Both the position numbers and the translations under genes were made by a program. DNA of 64,000 nt from a virus (taxonomy: Duplodnaviria > Caudoviricetes). The stretch spans positions 36,366 through 100,365 of IMG/VR virus record IMGVR_UViG_3300028048_000097; one strand, 5' to 3'. The notes under the pieces are model-generated. The model saw nothing but the letters and a program-made list of their open reading frames with translations, ran no database searches and was not told where the DNA came from. Position 1 is the stretch's first letter. Every line of letters begins with the position of its first letter. Positions 57,645-64,000 of the stretch are shown piece by piece.

Positions 57645-58765
57645 TTTGGTATGTAAATTGTTATTCCTGGATATTCCGCCTTCTGTCCTGACGACGAAAT
57701 TACCCATATTACATTTTTACGATGTGGTAGACCATAATTTAAATAACCATCTGTAAATATAACAAACGTTGAATATTCTGGATGATTACTATAATAATTT
57801 CATGCTTCTGAAACATCTGTTCCACCTCTACCACATATCTCTATTTTTTGGTTTCTATTTTTATAAGTAAATTTATTAGTAATTCGAGTATCAAATTCTA
57901 GTATATCTACTGTGATTCCAGATTTATGCAAATGATCTATTTCAGTGAAGAAATCTGATAACTCACTATTACTAACAGAACCTGAGGTATCTACTGCTAC
58001 TAATACTTTAGGTTTAAACTTTAATGTATTTCCTGGATTACCTTTAAATCTTTTAGATGGTCTATATTTAGTAGATTTAATAAAAGATTCTATTGAATTT
58101 CCAATAACTCTTCTAAAATAAGATTTCCAATTAAATATAGCTTCTCTATCTTTAAATAATCCATTAATATACTCTTTAAAACAATCTGGAATAGATCCAG
58201 CTTGTTTCATTACTTGTTCAGCAGAATGTTTTGCTTGTGAATTTAATTGCTGTTTAACGAGTTCTTTTTCGGCATCAGATAAATCAGCAAAATCTTTCCA
58301 AAATTTATGATTTTTGATAGACTGTAATTTTATGAAAGTTTCCAAATCATATCCTGCTTTTTTGGCATATTCTATAACATTTTCATAATACCATTTTACA
58401 CCCATTCTTTCTGGCATATTAAACATTGCAGGATATATAAATGGTTCATGTTGAAGAGCCGGAATATAACTGTTTACTTCTAGATCACAAGCAATGTTTA
58501 ATAGTTCATGATTTTCATAGTAATCGTCTAATACTACATGTTGAAATAGTAAATGCATTAATTCATGTTGAATTGTACCTACACATATTTCATCATTTTG
58601 AGATTCAAACCATTCTCTATTAACAAGTAATTCTGAATTAATACCATTTCTGCAAACAGCGGCTGTATCTATTTCTGTTGTATATCTTTTATTTAAGCCT
58701 AAAACAAATATACCATAAAACGGTTCTCTAATTAGAAGTTTCTTTAGAGCTGATTGTAGTTCCAT
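57635..58765 (-). CDS. Metallopeptidase-like (HExxH) plus vWA domain protein (DUF2201-type; 376 aa, code 4)
   Basis: HELMH, NIACDLEVN, MIDAS DTSGS, GRGGTD, and IFTDG after TGA read-through. Adjacent to the MoxR-like ATPase. Confidence 0.88.
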
Positions 58766-58940
58766 CTTCTATTAATTCCGCATCACTTATGTTTTCCTCA
58801 GTGACTTTTAAATTTAATAAAATATAATCTAATAAGGATTGAGGGCCTCCCATCATCCTTATATAGGTATCAATCTTTTCTTGTCTTGTTCCAGAACCAA
58901 GATCGATATTTCTATGAGTAAATTTTATTATACTACTCAT
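58728..58940 (-). CDS. Hypothetical protein (70 aa)
   Basis: ORF overlaps both neighbours within the operon. Confidence 0.5.
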   Translation of the reverse strand: MSSIIKFTHRNIDLGSGTRQEKIDTYIRMMGGPQSLLDYILLNLKVTEENISDAELIEDGTTISSKETSN

Positions 58941-59505
58941 TGTCTGTTCTACGATATTCTTCTAAAGCTTTTTTATAAGCTTCTGTATTACAATATCCAC
59001 AACTTGGGTGTTCTGGACAAAATCCTCTATATACACATTCAGGTACGCATTTTTCAGCAAGAATCGGATCTTGTTCTTTTAAAAAATCAATTACCAATTT
59101 TCAAGCCTCTCTAGTTTCTTTAGAAGCTCTAGAACATAATCGTTTTCTAGAAATATTAATAAAGGCTTGTGCATTACAAGTCATGTCCATATCATTTAAT
59201 GAACCTTGAGGTAATTGATCTCTAGGAACATCTAATTGTCTTTTATCTTCCCTTTGAGTATGAACAAATTTTTCGCAACCTTCATGATGTCTAACTAAAT
59301 GTGTAGTTACCCATTGACGTATATCTTCCCAAGTAAAATCATATTCAAGAAGTCTTATTGGAGAATGTTCTGCCAAAAGAATTCTTCTTTTAAATTGATT
59401 AGAAGGTTCATGATCAATTGGTTGTTTCCCAACTGTTTTACGAGCAGCATTTACAACTCTAATTCAATTGGCAACTGGATTAATAAGTCTTGTTACTTTA
59501 ACCAT
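58933..59505 (-). CDS. thyX: Flavin-dependent thymidylate synthase ThyX-like (190 aa, code 4)
   Basis: VVNAARKT, EHSPIR, THLVRH, TQREDKR, NAQAFINISRKRLC..AS.ETR, VPECVYRGFCPE. Confidence 0.78.
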
Positions 59506-59654
59506 TATTTATAAATTACATAAAAATTATCCTTTACGATTTTACGTAATCTTCTATGTGCATGTTTTTCACTAAATGCCCAAATAGTACCATTATATAG
59601 TATAGTATTTGGATAGGTTTTATATATAATGTAGTGATATCTTCCCATAATCAT
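59505..59654 (-). CDS. Hypothetical small protein (49 aa)
   Basis: ATG 59654 to a TAA that overlaps the thyX ATG (TAATG). Confidence 0.45.
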   Translation of the reverse strand: MIMGRYHYIIYKTYPNTILYNGTIWAFSEKHAHRRLRKIVKDNFYVIYK

Positions 59655-59664
59655 TAAAATTAGC

Positions 59665-59731
59665 CGATTTAAGACACTTTTATATAGTTTTAATATAGTT
59701 TATCATATAAAAACAAAAGTGTCTTAAATCG
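59665..59731. repeat. Perfect 17-bp inverted repeat just after the PNK stop
   Basis: CGATTTAAGACACTTTT (59665-81) / AAAAGTGTCTTAAATCG (59715-31). Confidence 0.85.
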
Positions 59732-59732
59732 T

Positions 59733-62677
59733 TTAAAAATCCCCATAATAAACTTGATTGCAAAGTAGACCTAAATTTCTCCACATATCACAAACTCGAT
59801 TTCTATCATCAAAAACAGCTATGACATTATAGTTTGGTTCAATATCTGTATGATAAATTTCTTCTTTGATGATTTCGTCATGTCTATAATCGCCTTTTTT
59901 ACGCATTATAAGTTCCCAATCTGTTCCATAGAAATTATCTTTAATCCAATTAAAGGTATCTTTACTACATTGATCAGTACCTTCTCTGCCACTGAGAAAA
60001 ATGATGTGAAAAGATTTGTTTAATTCTGTTAAAATATACAATAAAGGCCAATTTGGTTTATCTTCAGAAACTCGTTTTAAATCATAAGGAGATCTTCCTT
60101 GATGAATGGCAACTGTCGTAATATCATACATTTCTGTATGTACTGACTATATCTTAACTGAAGTTTAACTCAGCAATAACCGTTTCGACTTATGTACCAA
60201 TAATAAGTCTACTCTCCCGATTCGGAGATAGTCGATACAGGTTTATAAGTATTAATATCTATAATTTTATTATTTAAAGTTCAATATTTTTTGTTTTTAT
60301 GATATATAGGAACGTTGAGATATTGATATATTAAACTTCTACGAAAAGAATCTAATGAGTTACTTTTATTAAACTTAGTATAGGTTTCTTTTAATGTATG
60401 TGTAGTGTAGTATTTACGAATAATAAAAATCTCATTATCTTTATACAAAGATTGACAATTAGATTCTCCAGGTTTACCATTACTTTTCTTATGTCATTCT
60501 TTATTTTTAGAATTATACACTTCATCCATAATACCTTTTCAAGTATCACCTGTTCAAATTTTTATAAAAGCTGATCTTGAAATTTTATTTTCATACATTT
60601 TATAACACTCCTTTCTTGTTAATTTACATTCATTATAAATAGTTCTTATATCTATAACATCTTGTTCCGATAAACAAGCTTTAGGATTTGCATCTCATTG
60701 ATTAGATTCACCTCCAGCACTTTCATTATAACCGAAGTTAGGATTATTTGAATTGTAGAGTTTTATATAATATCGTTCTAATCTTCCGAGTTCTATAATG
60801 TCATCTATTTTATCACTAACAACTTCTAATTTAAAAACATCTATTCCATATTTATTCATAGCAGAATATAAATGGCTTTTATTTTTCCTTTTATATTCTC
60901 TAATATGTCCGTTTCAACGAGCTTTTAATGAAGTTGTTGTTAATCCTATATAAACTTTATTATTTATTGTATTTGTAATTTTGTATATAATCATATTGTT
61001 CTATTTTTAGATTAAATTACAAATTTAATAAAATATTTCTAATAAAAAATATAATACTTAATTTCCCACGGTATTCCCATGCATCTCTGTTTAGGGTTCA
61101 CCGTTAGCCATTTCTGACCCCACTGGTTAGTGGAAAAGTTATAACAGGCACTTTTACATACCATCAATATCTACTATAATGCAGTTCTGCTTTTTACCAT
61201 CATAAGGAACAAATTTTCTTTTATCAGTATAATAATTTTCAAGTTCTTCAGGAAAATACCTTGAAAAGAAGCCTTCTAAGACCTTTTTACCAACTTTCCT
61301 AGTACGATTATTATCTCGTTCTAAAGCTGTCTTAAAATCGATAAAAAAGTCCTTAAAATCGATTTCTGCATCAAGTTCTTTAGCAAGGTTTTTCCATTTT
61401 TCTTGAGTTTTAGGATTAAGATTCGTAGCGTCTATTATTACATTAAGATTGTTTTTAATAGCACTTCTTATTTGAAACTCTTCTACATCAGAAATATAAT
61501 CCTCTCTAGAAGGAACTCAATAAGTACCGGTAGCTTCACGAATTTCATCACGAGATACAATAACCCAATCTTTTTTACCAAAAACAAATTCTTTAGCCCA
61601 GGTGGATTTTCCAGATGCCGTATTACGGAGGCCCTTGAAGAACAATAATCTTCTTGGGCCTCATTTCTATATTTTTAATCTGTTCCATTTTCTTTCTAAT
61701 ATTGGTAAATTGTTATTTTGTAAATAATTATAAAAATATTCTCTTACAAGTTTATTTCCTGCTGAAATAGAAAGCGTTCCATTTTTTCGCTCATTAATAT
61801 GAAAATTTAAATTTAACGTATCAATTAGGTCTGTATAAAATTTCTTTCAATTTTTATGAGCAGTTATTGTGATGTATTTTCCAGATTTATCTATACAACC
61901 ATCACCATCTATAATTCCTATAAGTAATGCAGTTAAATCAGAATTAGTTAATTTTTTAAAATTAGTAAAATTACATGGATTATATGTCTTTACATAATGT
62001 ATTCCAAAGACGTTCATAATATTTTCTATAGAGTTTTTATTATTAAATGTTAATTTATAAGAGTTTGTCTTTGGTTTAAATATTATAATATTAGAATCTA
62101 TATCTAAAAATTCACATAATTTTTTAATTTGATTTAAATCAGAAGCTTTTAATGTAAATTCAAATCTATTTTTGTAAAAAGAACCATCTGCTAAAATAAA
62201 ACCAAGCCAATAGTAAGATTCTTTAGTTTGATTAAGTAAGTTATCTAAAGAGTATTTTGGAGTACTTGTAGAAGTAATCATTTTTATACCGCTTTTAAAT
62301 TTTCCAGAGTTATCTGAACAATGTAAACATTTTGAATTTGATTTAACTCCTCTTAATCAATCACTTCTTCTTTTATACGTAATTAACTTATTACAAATAG
62401 GACAATTTCGTGTATAATTTGCTGCTAAACCTTTTTCTAAATCTCTACAGGATCTACAAAGAGTTTTATTCTCTTCAGCTTTATCAAATCCGCTCTTTGT
62501 CTTATAAATCATATCATGTCCACATTTTGGACACTTATGAATGTAAAATTCAGTTTCTTTCATATTTTTTATTTTTTGATTATTTATAAGAGCAAAGATA
62601 TAAATTATTTTTAAAATTTACAAGTTTTTCCGTAAATTTCCAGATGCTGGGGCTCCTCTAAGTACTAGTAGTTTCAT
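59733..62677 (-). CDS. Polynucleotide kinase/3'-phosphatase (T4 PseT-like), interrupted: N-terminus at 62677-62648 or 61664-61626; body 61618-61160; last exon 60116-59733
   Basis: G[A/P]P-ASGKSTWAKE, VSRDEIR, IIDATNLN. HAD motif DIDG|T is split by an intron. Also LSGR and FDDR..V..MWR.LGL. Confidence 0.85.
60117..61159 (-). mobile_element. Group I intron in the PNK HAD motif, with GIY-YIG HEG
   Basis: P1 GGU/GCC with U-G. Core elements P UAACGGUGAA, Q AAUACCGUG, R GUAUCGACUA, S AAGAUAUAGUC, P9 CAUACA-GAAA-UGUAUG. Terminal G. Splicing gives DIDGTVA. Confidence 0.92.
60209..60994 (-). CDS. Intron-encoded GIY-YIG homing endonuclease (261 aa, code 4; missing from the track)
   Basis: MIIYKITNTINNKVYIGLTT..LKARWNGH...FGYNESAGG. 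Ends PVSTISESGE* within the R element region. Confidence 0.88.
61667..62563 (-). CDS. Double-motif LAGLIDADG endonuclease with N-terminal Cys Zn-finger repeats (298 aa, code 4)
   Basis: CPKC..CRSC and CPIC..CLHC, then YYWLGFILADG and LLIGIIDGDG, ending LERKW. Fragments share a frame through TGA. Confidence 0.85.
62593..62624 (-). promoter_or_regulatory. Bacteroidota-type promoter upstream of the LAGLIDADG gene
   Basis: Minus strand CTTG, 20 nt, TATCTTTG. Confidence 0.68.
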
Positions 62678-62680
62678 TTT

Positions 62681-62989
62681 TTATACTTCATGAACAATGT
62701 CACAAATTTCTTTTAGCTCTGACAAATTCGATTCATTAAAAGTAAAAGCCGATTCCATTTCTTCACCGGCGTTAAAAAGTTCTAAAATTTCGTAAAGCCA
62801 ATCTGGTGTATGATCACATAAAACATCAGCAATATTTTCTTCATCTAGTTTTACTTTCGGATCGTCTAAGTCCATAACAACTGTAAGACGCTTATTAAAA
62901 AATATATCCTCTGTTTCTTGTAAATATATTTTATGATTTCCTTTTATTTCTAAAGCTTTATTTTGCCTTTCTGTCATATTATTTTTCAT
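62681..62989 (-). CDS. Hypothetical acidic protein
   Basis: 102 aa ORF within the operon. Confidence 0.6.
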   Translation of the reverse strand: MKNNMTERQNKALEIKGNHKIYLQETEDIFFNKRLTVVMDLDDPKVKLDEENIADVLCDHTPDWLYEILELFNAGEEMESAFTFNESNLSELKEICDIVHEV

Positions 62990-63578
62990 TTAATTTACTT
63001 TTTACTAGCTCTTGTTTATATAAATCATCGGTATTTTTATGTAAAATTTCGAGACCTTTTTTTATTATCTCTTTATATTTATTTAAACAAGAATAATAAT
63101 CCTTACAATTTTGTATTAACTTAAATTCTTTAGATGGACTTTGAAGATTTACAATTTTATGATTTTCTATAATCTGATTAGTTAAGTTTAAACTAACAAT
63201 ATCCATAGCCATTTCAGATAAACAGTCATCTAAATCAGGATATGATTGGTAATCTGAATATTTTAACTGATCTAGAATATTTTTACGAAGTTTTAAAATA
63301 TCTAATGGTATCATTAATTTAACATGTTGTTTTATAGTATGCTTTTTATCCATACAGCTGCAAATCCATGCAAGTAATGAATTTTCATTCATTATTTTCC
63401 ACCATGTAGACATTTTATAAAAAGCGTAATGTTCTAAATCAGGGTTATTTGGAATATAGTTATCATCTGCAATAATAGTATAATTTTCTTCATCAGGAAT
63501 TCCATATATAGAAAGATCCGTTTGATATATATAGTATACTAACGGATCTTTCTTTAATTCTTCAATAAACTTATTCAT
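62979..63578 (-). CDS. Hypothetical protein (possibly degenerate nucleotidyltransferase fold)
   Basis: 199 aa ORF. N-terminal YIYQ...SIYG...YTIIAD loosely echoes the GS.xYG...DxD signature but lacks the catalytic residues. Confidence 0.45.
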   Translation of the reverse strand: MNKFIEELKKDPLVYYIYQTDLSIYGIPDEENYTIIADDNYIPNNPDLEHYAFYKMSTWWKIMNENSLLAWICSCMDKKHTIKQHVKLMIPLDILKLRKNILDQLKYSDYQSYPDLDDCLSEMAMDIVSLNLTNQIIENHKIVNLQSPSKEFKLIQNCKDYYSCLNKYKEIIKKGLEILHKNTDDLYKQELVKSKLNEK

Positions 63579-64000
63579 TAATTATCATCCTCAATATTAG
63601 AAATATTGTTGTCTAATTCCATCTGATCAACTTTACTTAGAAAATTCCAACATTTTAATTTCCAAGCTCTTGGAATCATATCTTCTTTCTTGATAACTAA
63701 GCCTTCGTGAGGAACTTTATTATTACAAGATGGAGAATTACATTCCATAAAGAAATTTTTATCATTAGCTAATTCTTCCCAGAATAATTGATTCCAATCT
63801 TCTGGGTACATCGGCTCTCCATTTACATCTTGTCTTAAATCAAGATACAAATCACCAGCCAATCCATAATACCATTCTTCAACAGGAGTTAAACCAACTT
63901 GTTTACACCATTGTTGCACTTCTCTTGCAGAAAATTCATGAGAAACACCATCAACATTGGTAATAGTAATACGATATATCCTTACTTTAAAATGTTTTTC
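63578..64000 (-). CDS. RNA ligase-like nucleotidyltransferase, C-terminal part (partial)
   Basis: Frame is open to the window edge. IYRIT, HEGLVIK (motif IV) and AWKLK (motif V). Near the PNK gene. Confidence 0.65.
   Translation of the reverse strand, partial: EKHFKVRIYRITITNVDGVSHEFSAREVQQWCKQVGLTPVEEWYYGLAGDLYLDLRQDVNGEPMYPEDWNQLFWEELANDKNFFMECNSPSCNNKVPHEGLVIKKEDMIPRAWKLKCWNFLSKVDQMELDNNISNIEDDN

What the first reader, a model, noticed from the sequence alone, without database searches (positions are those of the whole stretch)
61608..62677. PNK gene has two N-termini, both broken in the P-loop, around an endonuclease cassette with no intron core: candidate ribosomal bypass or non-canonical excision element
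Seen in sequence (minus strand): the upstream start encodes MKLLVLRGAPASG-NLRKNL* (62677-62618). After a promoter and the LAGLIDADG gene, a second start encodes MRPKKIIVLQGPP, then a 7-nt insert TAATACG (stop plus frameshift), then ASGKSTWAKEF... Neither start reads directly into the otherwise intact kinase-phosphatase body, which has no in-frame ATG/GTG/TTG between the P-loop and its intron. The 1029-nt cassette is bounded by an 11-bp direct repeat GCATCTGGAAA (62647-62637 and 61618-61608). Just inside lie complementary 7-mers TTACGGA / TCCGTAA (62635-62629 and 61629-61623). The insert also forms a local palindrome CCGTA-A-TACGG that competes with the long-range pairing. No group I P/Q/R/S elements are present and there is no room for them. 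Either removal of the cassette between the repeats (giving GAPASGKS) or skipping 7 nt (giving GPPASGKS) restores a canonical Walker A. Established: T4 gene 60 uses programmed bypassing with a take-off codon, an adjacent stop and a hairpin. Inference: this is a stop-hop (CCG UAA U ACG, 2/3 landing match), a long-range bypass between matched GCA/UCU/GGA codons, or RNA/DNA excision at the repeats, possibly using the neighbouring RNA ligase.
Basis: partly seen in the sequence, partly recalled or inferred. Interest (0 to 1): 0.88.

Follow-up and report, generated by a model that had tools for sequence, protein, structure and literature searches.

The report
Homing-endonuclease cassette with ribosome hop
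A selfish nuclease gene sits inside the ATP-binding loop of a rumen phage's RNA-repair kinase gene and brings a substitute gene start that ends in a hairpin, a stop codon and four extra bases, which ribosomes most likely hop over; this would be a short natural counterpart of the phage T4 gene 60 bypass, but no protein or RNA evidence exists yet.

Summary
On the minus strand, a T4-type pnk gene (code 4, TGA=Trp) has a native 5' stub (A, 62677-62618), a LAGLIDADG endonuclease gene (62563-61667) and a second 5' end (B, 61688-61623). B stops at CCG-TAA. Seven bases later the kinase body resumes at GCA (61618).

The 7-nt gap is not an assembly error: contigs from two other ruminant-gut studies carry it, and a goat-gut run also holds the empty site.

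About 40 loci (20 distinct junctions) from other phages share the layout. A cassette-borne B ORF encodes the kinase's first strand. A hairpin with compensatory changes always ends on base 1 of the last B codon. A stop follows, then a 6-9-nt gap. Skipping the gap always restores GxxxxGK[ST]. The triplet before the resume codon usually pairs with the departing tRNA (CAG/CAG, CCA/CCA, CCG/CCA).

Three loci have lost most of the endonuclease and stub A but keep B, hairpin, stop and an intact pnk.

Best reading (about 0.6): a mobile endonuclease cassette whose gap is bypassed by a short ribosomal hop. Excision at the repeats and long-range bypass are not supported.

This scan reached the same reading earlier on other genomes. 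I found no publication.

The parts
62618..62677 (-). Stub A: the native pnk 5' end (MKLLVLRGAPASG), cut within the Lys codon of GK[ST], plus a 6-codon tail and TAA. It is a remnant of the invaded gene.
   Evidence: Stub A differs between loci that carry the same cassette. It has decayed in L023 (in-frame TGA), is absent in L005 and is deleted in L176, L178 and L184.
62564..62636 (-). Left end of the cassette: a conserved non-coding stretch between stub A and the endonuclease start. A promoter is possible but not shown.
   Evidence: The stretch is similar in L002 and L003. The promoter scan was not above shuffles.
61667..62563 (-). LAGLIDADG homing-endonuclease gene: 298 aa with two in-frame TGA=Trp codons and N-terminal zinc ribbons.
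   Evidence: Pfam LAGLIDADG_3, E 2e-7. 97 homologues were found. In most of the closest ones examined it lies directly upstream of pnk.
61623..61688 (-). ORF B: the cassette-borne substitute pnk 5' end, MEQIKNIE-MRPKKIIVLQGPP plus TAA. The upstream ATG is at 61688 and the proximal ATG at 61664.
   Evidence: The ORF is open from the upstream ATG in all junction types but one. In the CAG-TGA-CAG group (18 loci) its last 60 nt are the most conserved stretch of the locus, at 94% mean pairwise identity.
61628..61662 (-). Hairpin: 5' arm GAGGCCC (61662-61656), an inner 5-bp stem, and 3' arm GGGCCTC (61634-61628). Its last pair uses base 1 of the take-off codon.
   Evidence: RNAfold gives -20.4 kcal/mol, z -5.4. 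The register is the same in 20 of 20 distinct junctions, with 2-3 Watson-Crick pair types at stem positions 2, 3, 4, 5 and 8.
61619..61628 (-). Recoding site: take-off codon CCG (61628-61626), stop TAA (61625-61623), spacer T (61622) and landing triplet ACG (61621-61619). The 7-nt gap is 61625-61619.
   Evidence: The gap is present without an indel in contigs of two other studies.
61160..61618 (-). pnk kinase exon, from the resume codon GCA (ASGKSTWAKEF...) to ...IVDIDG.
   Evidence: Pfam AAA_33, E 6e-15. It is 75% identical to the intact 295-aa Pnk P0098. Of 23 listed strain differences, 21 fall at third codon positions.
60117..61159 (-). Second intervening sequence in pnk, within the DxDGT motif. 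It is probably a group I intron carrying a GIY-YIG endonuclease ORF (60994-60209).
   Evidence: Pfam GIY-YIG. The boundaries are inferred from alignment to P0098: U before the 5' junction and G before the 3' junction. Rfam found no match, so the fold is not shown.
59733..60116 (-). pnk phosphatase exon (TVAIHQGRSPYDL...YYGDF plus stop).
   Evidence: Pfam HAD_PNKP, E 7.5e-40. It aligns to the C-terminus of P0098 and to T4 Pnk 1LTQ.

Best explanation
A free-standing LAGLIDADG homing-endonuclease cassette has homed into the Walker A (P-loop) codons of a T4-type polynucleotide kinase/phosphatase gene. The native 5' end is left behind as a useless stub (A).

The cassette brings its own substitute 5' end (ORF B). 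B encodes strand beta-1 and the first three P-loop residues, and it is followed by a stop codon and four more bases. I infer that this 7-nt gap breaks the endonuclease's recognition site, so the invaded gene is immune.

I also infer that full-length Pnk is still made. A ribosome with peptidyl-tRNA-Pro on CCG and UAA in the A site terminates slowly. It slides 7 nt forward, the tRNA re-pairs at ACG, and decoding resumes at GCA, giving ...IIVLQGPP-ASGKST...

The conserved hairpin ends on base 1 of the take-off codon. It would be melted inside the stalled ribosome, and its re-zipping behind the ribosome is the likely source of the forward pull.

Shown here: the cassette, its mobility, and the conservation of ORF B, hairpin, stop and gap. 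Inferred: the hop itself, its driver, and the immunity function.
For: 1. The layout recurs. The closest endonuclease homologues (74-38% identity) mostly sit directly upstream of pnk with a stop in the P-loop.

2. Across 20 distinct junctions the gap is 6, 7, 8 or 9 nt. Skipping it always restores GxxxxGK[ST], as found in stub A and in intact Pnk such as P0098 and T4 1LTQ.

3. Take-off and landing triplets match or can pair with the same tRNA. CAG/CAG occurs in two lineages, then CCA/CCA, CCG/CCA and CCT/CCG. With G-U pairs allowed, CCG/TCG, CCG/TTG, CCG/CTA and CAA/CGA also fit. Only this window's CCG/ACG has one mismatch.

4. Every junction has a hairpin of -20 to -29 kcal/mol (z -4 to -8). 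It ends on base 1 of the take-off codon and shows compensatory changes at five stem positions.

5. In the CAG-TGA-CAG group, the last 60 nt of B are the most conserved part of the locus (94%, against 73-88% for the endonuclease). The loop always encodes a kinase-like beta-1 strand that matches the local pnk type.

6. Loci L176, L178 and L184 have lost stub A and most of the endonuclease. They keep B, hairpin, CAG-TGA-CAG and a 293-296-aa pnk body. About 20 invaded loci have intact bodies.

7. TGA is a true stop in the CAG-TGA-CAG group: neither the endonuclease nor the pnk body there has an in-frame TGA, and several pnk genes end in TGA.

8. The cassette is mobile. An empty-site allele occurs in a goat-gut run, B is identical across strains whose pnk bodies differ by about 9%, and identity falls with distance from the junction.

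9. The T4 MobA/gene 60 cassette is a precedent for an endonuclease plus a bypassed insert that blocks self-cleavage (10.1101/2022.08.31.505936).
Against: There is no protein, ribosome-profiling or reporter evidence for any member.

In this window the landing triplet ACG mismatches tRNA-Pro at position 1. The four TGA=Trp lineages have non-triplet gaps with imperfect landing triplets, so they could be decayed versions of a 9-nt type.

Because the cassette spreads by homing, intact pnk bodies and their synonymous-site pattern may predate invasion.

In the in-frame types, simple stop readthrough cannot be excluded. The UGA-C context in particular is known to be leaky.

In L161 the stop is TAG, in a phage whose endonuclease has six in-frame TAGs. 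TAG may therefore be read as an amino acid there, which would give a 3-residue insertion rather than a hop.

Matched codons could simply be a by-product of how the insert arose, as a duplication.
Confidence: 0.6

Rival explanations
1. The cassette is purely parasitic and pnk is dead in invaded phages. ORF B, the stop and the gap are relics of the donor's gene and of imprecise repair. Intact bodies only reflect recent invasion.
For: The cassette is younger than the flanking pnk divergence: there are no differences over 61605-61828 but 23 over the next 244 nt. The landing triplet in this window is imperfect. A second mobile element (a GIY-YIG intervening sequence) also sits in the gene.
Against: Endonuclease lineages down to about 40% identity all keep an open ORF B that encodes a beta-1 strand, a hairpin with compensatory changes, and a stop at the same codon. 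In the CAG-TGA-CAG group B is more conserved than the endonuclease. Three loci lost the endonuclease and stub A but not B or pnk. Of about 20 invaded pnk bodies, none has frameshifts or scattered in-frame stops; L019, which ends after 140 aa for an unexamined reason, is the one exception.
Confidence: 0.15
2. Recoding occurs, but by frameshifting (7- and 8-nt gaps) or stop readthrough (6- and 9-nt gaps). This would give a Pnk with 2-4 extra residues in the P-loop.
For: Pro codons and stop codons are classic shift sites. UGA-C is a leaky context (established knowledge). In L161, TAG may be decoded as an amino acid. A G-rich stretch lies 3 nt upstream of the last B codon, as in the prfB +1 site (the prfB comparison is from my own knowledge).
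Against: It needs three different mechanisms (+1, +2 or -1, and readthrough) at one conserved site. The products differ in length and replace the conserved first Gly spacing of GxxxxGK[ST]. The landing-triplet regularity and the repeated codon would have no role.
Confidence: 0.15
3. The 1029-nt cassette is removed, as RNA or DNA, between the 11-bp repeats, or is skipped by a long-range bypass. That would join stub A to the body, perhaps with help from the neighbouring RNA ligase.
For: The repeat and the complementary 7-mers exist in this window, and 1029 is a multiple of 3. An RNA ligase gene lies nearby in relatives.
Against: The repeat is broken in related strains (TCT>AGT) and differs between A and B in L002, L003 and L006. 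The 7-mers are not conserved and show no compensation. Stub A is decayed, absent or deleted in several loci with intact pnk. Rfam found no intron family here, and stops rule out an intein. No contig joint across the cassette was listed in the four runs laid.
Confidence: 0.03
4. Pnk is made as two pieces, or by reinitiation. The B peptide (21 aa) ends at the stop, and the body starts at or near the landing triplet.
For: In L002 the landing triplet is TTG, and a gene caller used it as the start. ACG can initiate weakly (established knowledge).
Against: Landing triplets TCG, CTA, CCA, CCG, CAG and CGA are not start codons. A body starting at ASGKST lacks the central beta-1 strand and the first P-loop glycine.
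Confidence: 0.05

Closest known systems
Phage T4 gene 60 translational bypass carried by the MobA homing-endonuclease element (Manning & Atkins, bioRxiv 10.1101/2022.08.31.505936, which cites Bonocora et al. 2011)
   Same: An endonuclease gene is inserted in a conserved enzyme gene. It adds a new start for the downstream part and a non-coding insert that begins with a stop right after the take-off codon. In most relatives the take-off and landing codons match. In T4 the insert blocks self-cleavage. Derivatives exist that lost the endonuclease but kept the bypass.
   Different: The endonuclease is LAGLIDADG, not HNH. The target is the pnk P-loop, not topoisomerase. The gap is 6-9 nt, not 50. 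The upstream ORF is only 20-25 codons, so the nascent peptide is short. The conserved RNA element is a hairpin 5' of the take-off codon, not a stem-loop inside the gap. The upstream fragment (stub A) is discarded rather than used as a separate subunit. There is no sequence homology, so the origin is independent.
Short 'stop-hops' in synthetic E. coli constructs, such as CUU-UAG-CUA (Weiss, Dunn, Atkins and Gesteland 1987; cited from my own knowledge, not read here)
   Same: Peptidyl-tRNA leaves a codon next to a stop and re-pairs on a similar codon a few bases downstream. This is the same geometry as CAG-UGA-CAG and CCG-UAA-CCA.
   Different: Those events were inefficient and artificial. Here the site is natural, conserved, tied to a hairpin and needed for an intact enzyme. 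Non-triplet distances (7 and 8 nt) also occur.
prfB (RF2) programmed +1 frameshift (own knowledge)
   Same: A stop codon in the A site and a G-rich SD-like stretch 3 nt upstream of the P-site codon.
   Different: A +1 shift here would not restore the Walker A motif. The gaps of 6, 8 and 9 nt do not fit a +1 shift.
Free-standing phage homing endonucleases with co-conversion of flanks (T4 seg and mob genes; see 10.1101/2022.08.31.505936 and PMC10448857, title and abstract only)
   Same: There is presence/absence polymorphism at one site, and flanking identity decays with distance.
   Different: Those usually lie between genes. This one lies inside a gene and supplies a replacement 5' end.
Intron-, intein- or split-intein-borne endonucleases ('fractured genes', PMC2677866, abstract only)
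   Same: An endonuclease gene interrupts a conserved motif of an enzyme gene.
   Different: There is no ribozyme core. There is no continuous frame and there are no splice residues. Stub A has only six extra codons, far too few for an intein half.

Membership tests
Programmed translational bypassing (gene 60 type) | Take-off codon directly followed by a stop or other poorly decoded codon | tested here: met
   CCG-TAA in the window. A stop follows the last B codon in all 20 distinct junctions.
Programmed translational bypassing (gene 60 type) | Landing codon that matches the take-off codon | tested here: inconclusive
   The match is exact or synonymous in CAG/CAG, CCA/CCA, CCG/CCA and CCT/CCG. 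It is G-U-compatible in four more types. The window's ACG matches CCG at only 2 of 3 positions.
Programmed translational bypassing (gene 60 type) | Skipping the gap gives the conserved, functional protein sequence | tested here: met
   The result is GPPASGKST, the same spacing as stub A, P0098 and T4 Pnk 1LTQ.
Programmed translational bypassing (gene 60 type) | Stem-loop inside the gap that includes the take-off codon | tested here: not met
   The gap is only 7 nt. The conserved hairpin lies 5' of the take-off codon and ends on its first base.
Programmed translational bypassing (gene 60 type) | A single polypeptide spanning the gap, shown experimentally | not testable with these tools
   No proteomic or reporter data are available. 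The RNA-run contigs do not cover the junction.
Mobile free-standing LAGLIDADG homing-endonuclease cassette | LAGLIDADG endonuclease domain | tested here: met
   Pfam LAGLIDADG_3, E 2e-7. The alignment of 32 homologues has two motif blocks, including an invariant G-D-G-D-G block.
Mobile free-standing LAGLIDADG homing-endonuclease cassette | Alleles with and without the element at the same site in related genomes | tested here: met
   A goat-gut run holds an empty site...RGVP|ASGKS, that breaks at 61618, alongside the cassette form. P0098 is an intact cassette-free Pnk at 75% identity.
Mobile free-standing LAGLIDADG homing-endonuclease cassette | Co-conversion: flank identity falls with distance from the element | tested here: met
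   Mean pairwise identity runs 94% (B), 87%, 80%, then 50-70% along pnk in 18 loci.
Mobile free-standing LAGLIDADG homing-endonuclease cassette | Cleavage of the empty site, with resistance of the occupied site | not testable with these tools
   This needs an enzyme assay.
Group I intron | Conserved catalytic core (P3-P9) flanking the ORF | tested here: not met
   No Rfam match at E<=1 over 58000-64000. Only about 70 nt and 45 nt of non-ORF sequence remain in the cassette.
Intein | Continuous reading frame with the host protein and splice-junction residues | tested here: not met
   The three segments are in one frame, but they are broken by TAA (62620-62618) and TAG (61669-61667). There is no Cys/Ser start and no His-Asn end.
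T4-type polynucleotide kinase/phosphatase (Pnkp) | N-terminal P-loop kinase domain plus C-terminal HAD-type phosphatase domain | tested here: met
   Pfam AAA_33 (E 6e-15) and HAD_PNKP (E 7.5e-40). The close relative P0098 matches T4 Pnk 1LTQ over its full length, E 3e-37.

The most novel reading that the evidence does not exclude
These cassettes are a second, independently evolved class of endonuclease-linked translational bypass elements. A GC-rich hairpin abuts the P-site codon and is melted inside a ribosome stalled on a stop. As it re-zips behind the ribosome, it pulls the mRNA 6-9 nt through. Peptidyl-tRNA then re-pairs, with G-U pairs or even one mismatch tolerated, and an essential P-loop is decoded across a gap that protects the DNA from the cassette's own nuclease. 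Earlier notes of this scan report similar short gaps in other phage genes (dNMP kinase, metallophosphoesterase). If so, short hops may be a general way for phage selfish elements to sit inside conserved motifs.
Probability: 0.5. Interest if true: 0.9.

Novelty: new variant of a known kind. Interest (0 to 1): 0.8.

Why it matters
Programmed translational bypassing has rested on one natural bacterial-virus example, T4 gene 60. A 2022 survey still called that cassette unique (10.1101/2022.08.31.505936).

A second, unrelated family would show that ribosome hopping is a recurrent solution when a homing endonuclease must disrupt its own target inside a motif that tolerates no insertion. The family has a very short gap, a simple hairpin and many natural variants: four gap lengths and at least ten take-off/landing combinations.

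It offers a compact system of about 70 nt for reporter assays on how mRNA structure drives ribosome sliding.

It also matters for annotation. Gene callers split or truncate these pnk genes, or start them at spurious codons.

Tried and rejected
- **Rfam scan, 58000-64000, E<=1.** Only a chance miRNA hit. No intron family for the cassette or for the second intervening sequence.
- **Searches of viral contigs.** An exact-pattern search and a protein-pattern search with the window's own pnk found nothing. Relatives were reached through the endonuclease instead.
- **Named phages (INPHARED).** No record carries this endonuclease family, so no curated annotation could be consulted.
- **Degenerate pattern CARGGSCCTCCGTAAWT.** One true locus. 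The other 14 hits are GC-rich, with no endonuclease match and no kinase-like context.
- **tRNA search.** None in the window or the 100-kb contig, so no phage tRNA-Pro or suppressor can be invoked.
- **RNA run X17.** Its contigs cover parts of the endonuclease gene only and do not reach the junction. This says nothing either way about transcripts or splicing.
- **Split intein, selenocysteine (UGA with a 3' SECIS) and transcriptional slippage.** Considered and dropped. Stub A has only six extra codons, the hairpin is 5' of the stop and TAA types exist, and there is no homopolymer run.
- **The CCGTA-A-TACGG palindrome.** Not conserved in L002, L003 or L006.
- **P0098 locus.** Its DNA could not be fetched.
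Full report
**What is in the window**

The window is the last 64 kb of a 100,365-nt viral contig. Its DNA also occurs in ruminant-gut runs.

Coding stretches hold in-frame TGA codons. ORFs roughly double in length when TGA is read as Trp, so the phage uses code 4.

On the minus strand the order is as follows.
- A 102-aa ORF ends at 62681.
- Stub A starts at ATG 62677 and reads MKLLVLRGAPASG, then NLRKNL and TAA.
- A 298-aa LAGLIDADG endonuclease gene occupies 62563-61667.
- ORF B runs from ATG 61688 (or 61664) to TAA 61625-61623 and ends in ...KKIIVLQGPP.
- Four further bases (TACG) follow the stop.
- The pnk kinase exon starts at GCA 61618 (ASGKSTWAKEF...) and matches Pfam AAA_33.
- A 1,043-nt intervening sequence carries a GIY-YIG ORF.
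- The phosphatase exon matches Pfam HAD_PNKP.

The kinase exon has no in-frame ATG, GTG or TTG.

**The insert is real and the cassette is an insertion polymorphism**

Contigs of 21 kb and 25 kb, from two other studies, cover 61300-62674. They differ by about 40 substitutions and show no indel at the 7-nt gap.

There is no difference at all between 61605 and 61828. Over the next 244 nt of pnk there are 23 listed differences, and 21 of them fall at third codon positions.

In those strains stub A reads AGT instead of TCT. The 11-bp direct repeat is therefore not conserved.

A goat-gut run holds a contig at higher depth that follows the pnk body up to 61618. It then continues with a native 5' end (...KLLVLRGVP|ASGKS). 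This is the empty site, and it sits beside the cassette form.

The closest intact Pnk, P0098, is 75% identical and 295 aa long. It reads MITVLQGVPASGKST..., and it matches T4 Pnk 1LTQ end to end.

**The same layout recurs widely**

The endonuclease has 97 homologues. I fetched loci through exact-protein look-ups and pattern scans.

About 40 loci, giving 20 distinct junction sequences, have the endonuclease directly upstream of pnk with a stop inside the P-loop.

The junctions, written as last B codon | stop and spacer | triplet before the resume codon | resume codon, are listed here.

| Locus | Junction | Gap |
|---|---|---|
| window | CCG \| TAA T \| ACG \| GCA | 7 nt |
| L002 | CCG \| TAA A \| TTG \| GCT | 7 nt |
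| L006, L158-160 | CCG \| TAA AT \| TCG \| GCT | 8 nt |
| L162-169 | CCG \| TAA AT \| CTA \| GCT | 8 nt |
| L003 | CCG \| TAA \| CCA \| GCT | 6 nt |
| L004, L005 | CCA \| TAA TAT \| CCA \| GCT or GCA | 9 nt |
| L161 | CCT \| TAG TAT \| CCG \| TGT | 9 nt |
| L007 and about 20 large-phage loci | CAG \| TGA \| CAG \| GGN (GCA in L021/L022) | 6 nt |
| L086 | CAA \| TGA \| CGA \| GGT | 6 nt |

The L162-169 junction is identical in eight loci from at least eight samples.

In every case, leaving out the gap gives GxxxxGK[ST]. That is the spacing seen in the local stub A and in intact Pnk.

In the TGA group, TGA is a genuine stop. There is no in-frame TGA in 263 endonuclease codons or 291 pnk codons, and several pnk genes end in TGA.

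**Which part is native and which is cassette**

Among loci with near-identical cassettes, stub A differs (VETKKLIICRGIQGSG, MDKRVLIICRGIQGSG, MKERKLIICRGIQGSG and others). B is constant (MEQTNDKGALCQRKLIICRGLQ).

Stub A is therefore the recipient's own 5' end, and B travels with the endonuclease.

Identity between 18 loci is highest in the last 60 nt of B, at 94%. It is lower in the endonuclease (73-88%). Along pnk it falls from 87% to 50-70% with distance. That gradient is the pattern expected from homing with co-conversion.

**A conserved hairpin**

In all 20 distinct junctions the minimum-energy fold of the 66 nt ending at the last B codon is one hairpin. It has -20 to -29 kcal/mol and z-scores of -4 to -8. 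Its closing pair uses base 1 of that codon.

Stem positions 2, 3, 4, 5 and 8 each show two or three Watson-Crick pair types across lineages. Examples are GAGGCCC/GGGCCTC, GCACTCC/GGAGTGC and GGAGCCCTCTGC/GCAGAGGGCTCC.

The 3' arm is the P-loop coding sequence. The 5' arm explains the odd residues early in B. The loop encodes strand beta-1.

**Evidence that B is used**

ORF B is open from an ATG embedded in the endonuclease's conserved R-K-W codons. The exception is one lineage, which uses a proximal ATG preceded by AGGAGG.

Its beta-1 sequence follows the local pnk type.

In L176, L178 and L184, deletions removed stub A and most of the endonuclease. They left B, the hairpin, CAG-TGA-CAG and a 293-296-aa pnk body.

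Stub A carries a nonsense codon in L023 and is absent in L005.

About 20 invaded loci have full-length bodies.

L091 shows a related endonuclease upstream of an uninterrupted P-loop kinase. This may be the ancestral state.

**Mechanism**

The features fit a short programmed hop.
- Termination should be slow at Pro-UAA or Gln-UGA-C. This rests on established knowledge.
- A tRNA can re-pair a few bases downstream.
- A hairpin that can only re-form if the mRNA moves forward through the ribosome would supply the pull.

A role for 5' structure in forward movement has been discussed for gene 60. There it is poorly conserved.

The T4 MobA element supplies the logic for the gap: an insert that blocks self-cleavage without altering a conserved protein region.

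None of this has been tested for the present family.

**Weak points**
- The landing triplet in this window (ACG) has a first-position mismatch.
- The four TGA=Trp lineages have non-triplet gaps, which could be decayed 9-nt forms.
- Readthrough is possible for the in-frame types.
- L161 uses TAG in a phage whose endonuclease has six in-frame TAGs.
- Intact bodies may partly reflect recent invasion.

**Other readings**

Excision or long-range bypass between the repeats is not supported. The repeat and the 7-mers vary without compensation. Stub A is dispensable. No intron family matches, and stops exclude an intein.

Reinitiation fails because most landing triplets are not start codons.

**Literature and earlier notes**

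Two full-text searches found no description of a LAGLIDADG/pnk hop. A 2022 preprint calls the gene 60 cassette unique. No named phage carries this endonuclease.

Earlier reports from this scan, on other genomes, reached the same reading for pnk and for other genes. I read them only after recording my own reading. They are not independent evidence.

**Verdict**

A mobile LAGLIDADG cassette with a substitute 5' end is well supported. The ribosomal hop is the best explanation, at about 0.6, and awaits a reporter or proteomic test.

Noticed in passing
window 60117-61159 (-): pnk is interrupted a second time, inside the phosphatase DxDGT motif, by a 1,043-nt sequence with a 261-aa GIY-YIG ORF (60994-60209). 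The junctions fit group I rules (U before the 5' junction, G before the 3' junction), but Rfam found no match.
   Followed up: partly
whole window; L002, L003, L006, L158-L169: These phages read TGA as Trp (code 4). The CAG-TGA-CAG group uses the standard code. The stop in the gap is never a codon that the phage reads as sense, except possibly in L161.
   Followed up: partly
L161:2001-2876 and 2926-2928: The endonuclease has six in-frame TAG codons while neighbouring genes have none. The pnk gap also starts with TAG. TAG may be recoded (to Gln), or decoded only late in infection, in this phage.
   Followed up: partly
L091:2200-2400: A 38%-identical endonuclease lies directly upstream of an uninterrupted P-loop kinase gene (MIQKNAIFMLGLPGSGKST). 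This is a possible ancestral free-standing arrangement.
   Followed up: no
L176, L178 (=L039), L184 (=L032): These are deletion derivatives in which the upstream gene is fused to the C-terminal part of the endonuclease. Stub A is gone, while ORF B, hairpin, stop and pnk remain intact.
   Followed up: yes
window 61637-61632 and the equivalent place in relatives: A G-rich, SD-like stretch (AAGGG, AGAGGG, AGGGAG) lies 3 nt upstream of the last B codon, as in the prfB frameshift site. It may simply follow from the Gly codon and the hairpin.
   Followed up: no
L019, pnk body: The pnk body ends after 140 aa, unlike its relatives (about 290 aa). This could be another insertion or a real truncation.
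   Followed up: no
window 61645 (-); L002:5943: Gene callers start pnk at spurious TTG codons next to the gap, or call only the phosphatase half. These genes are therefore mis-annotated in public protein sets.
   Followed up: partly
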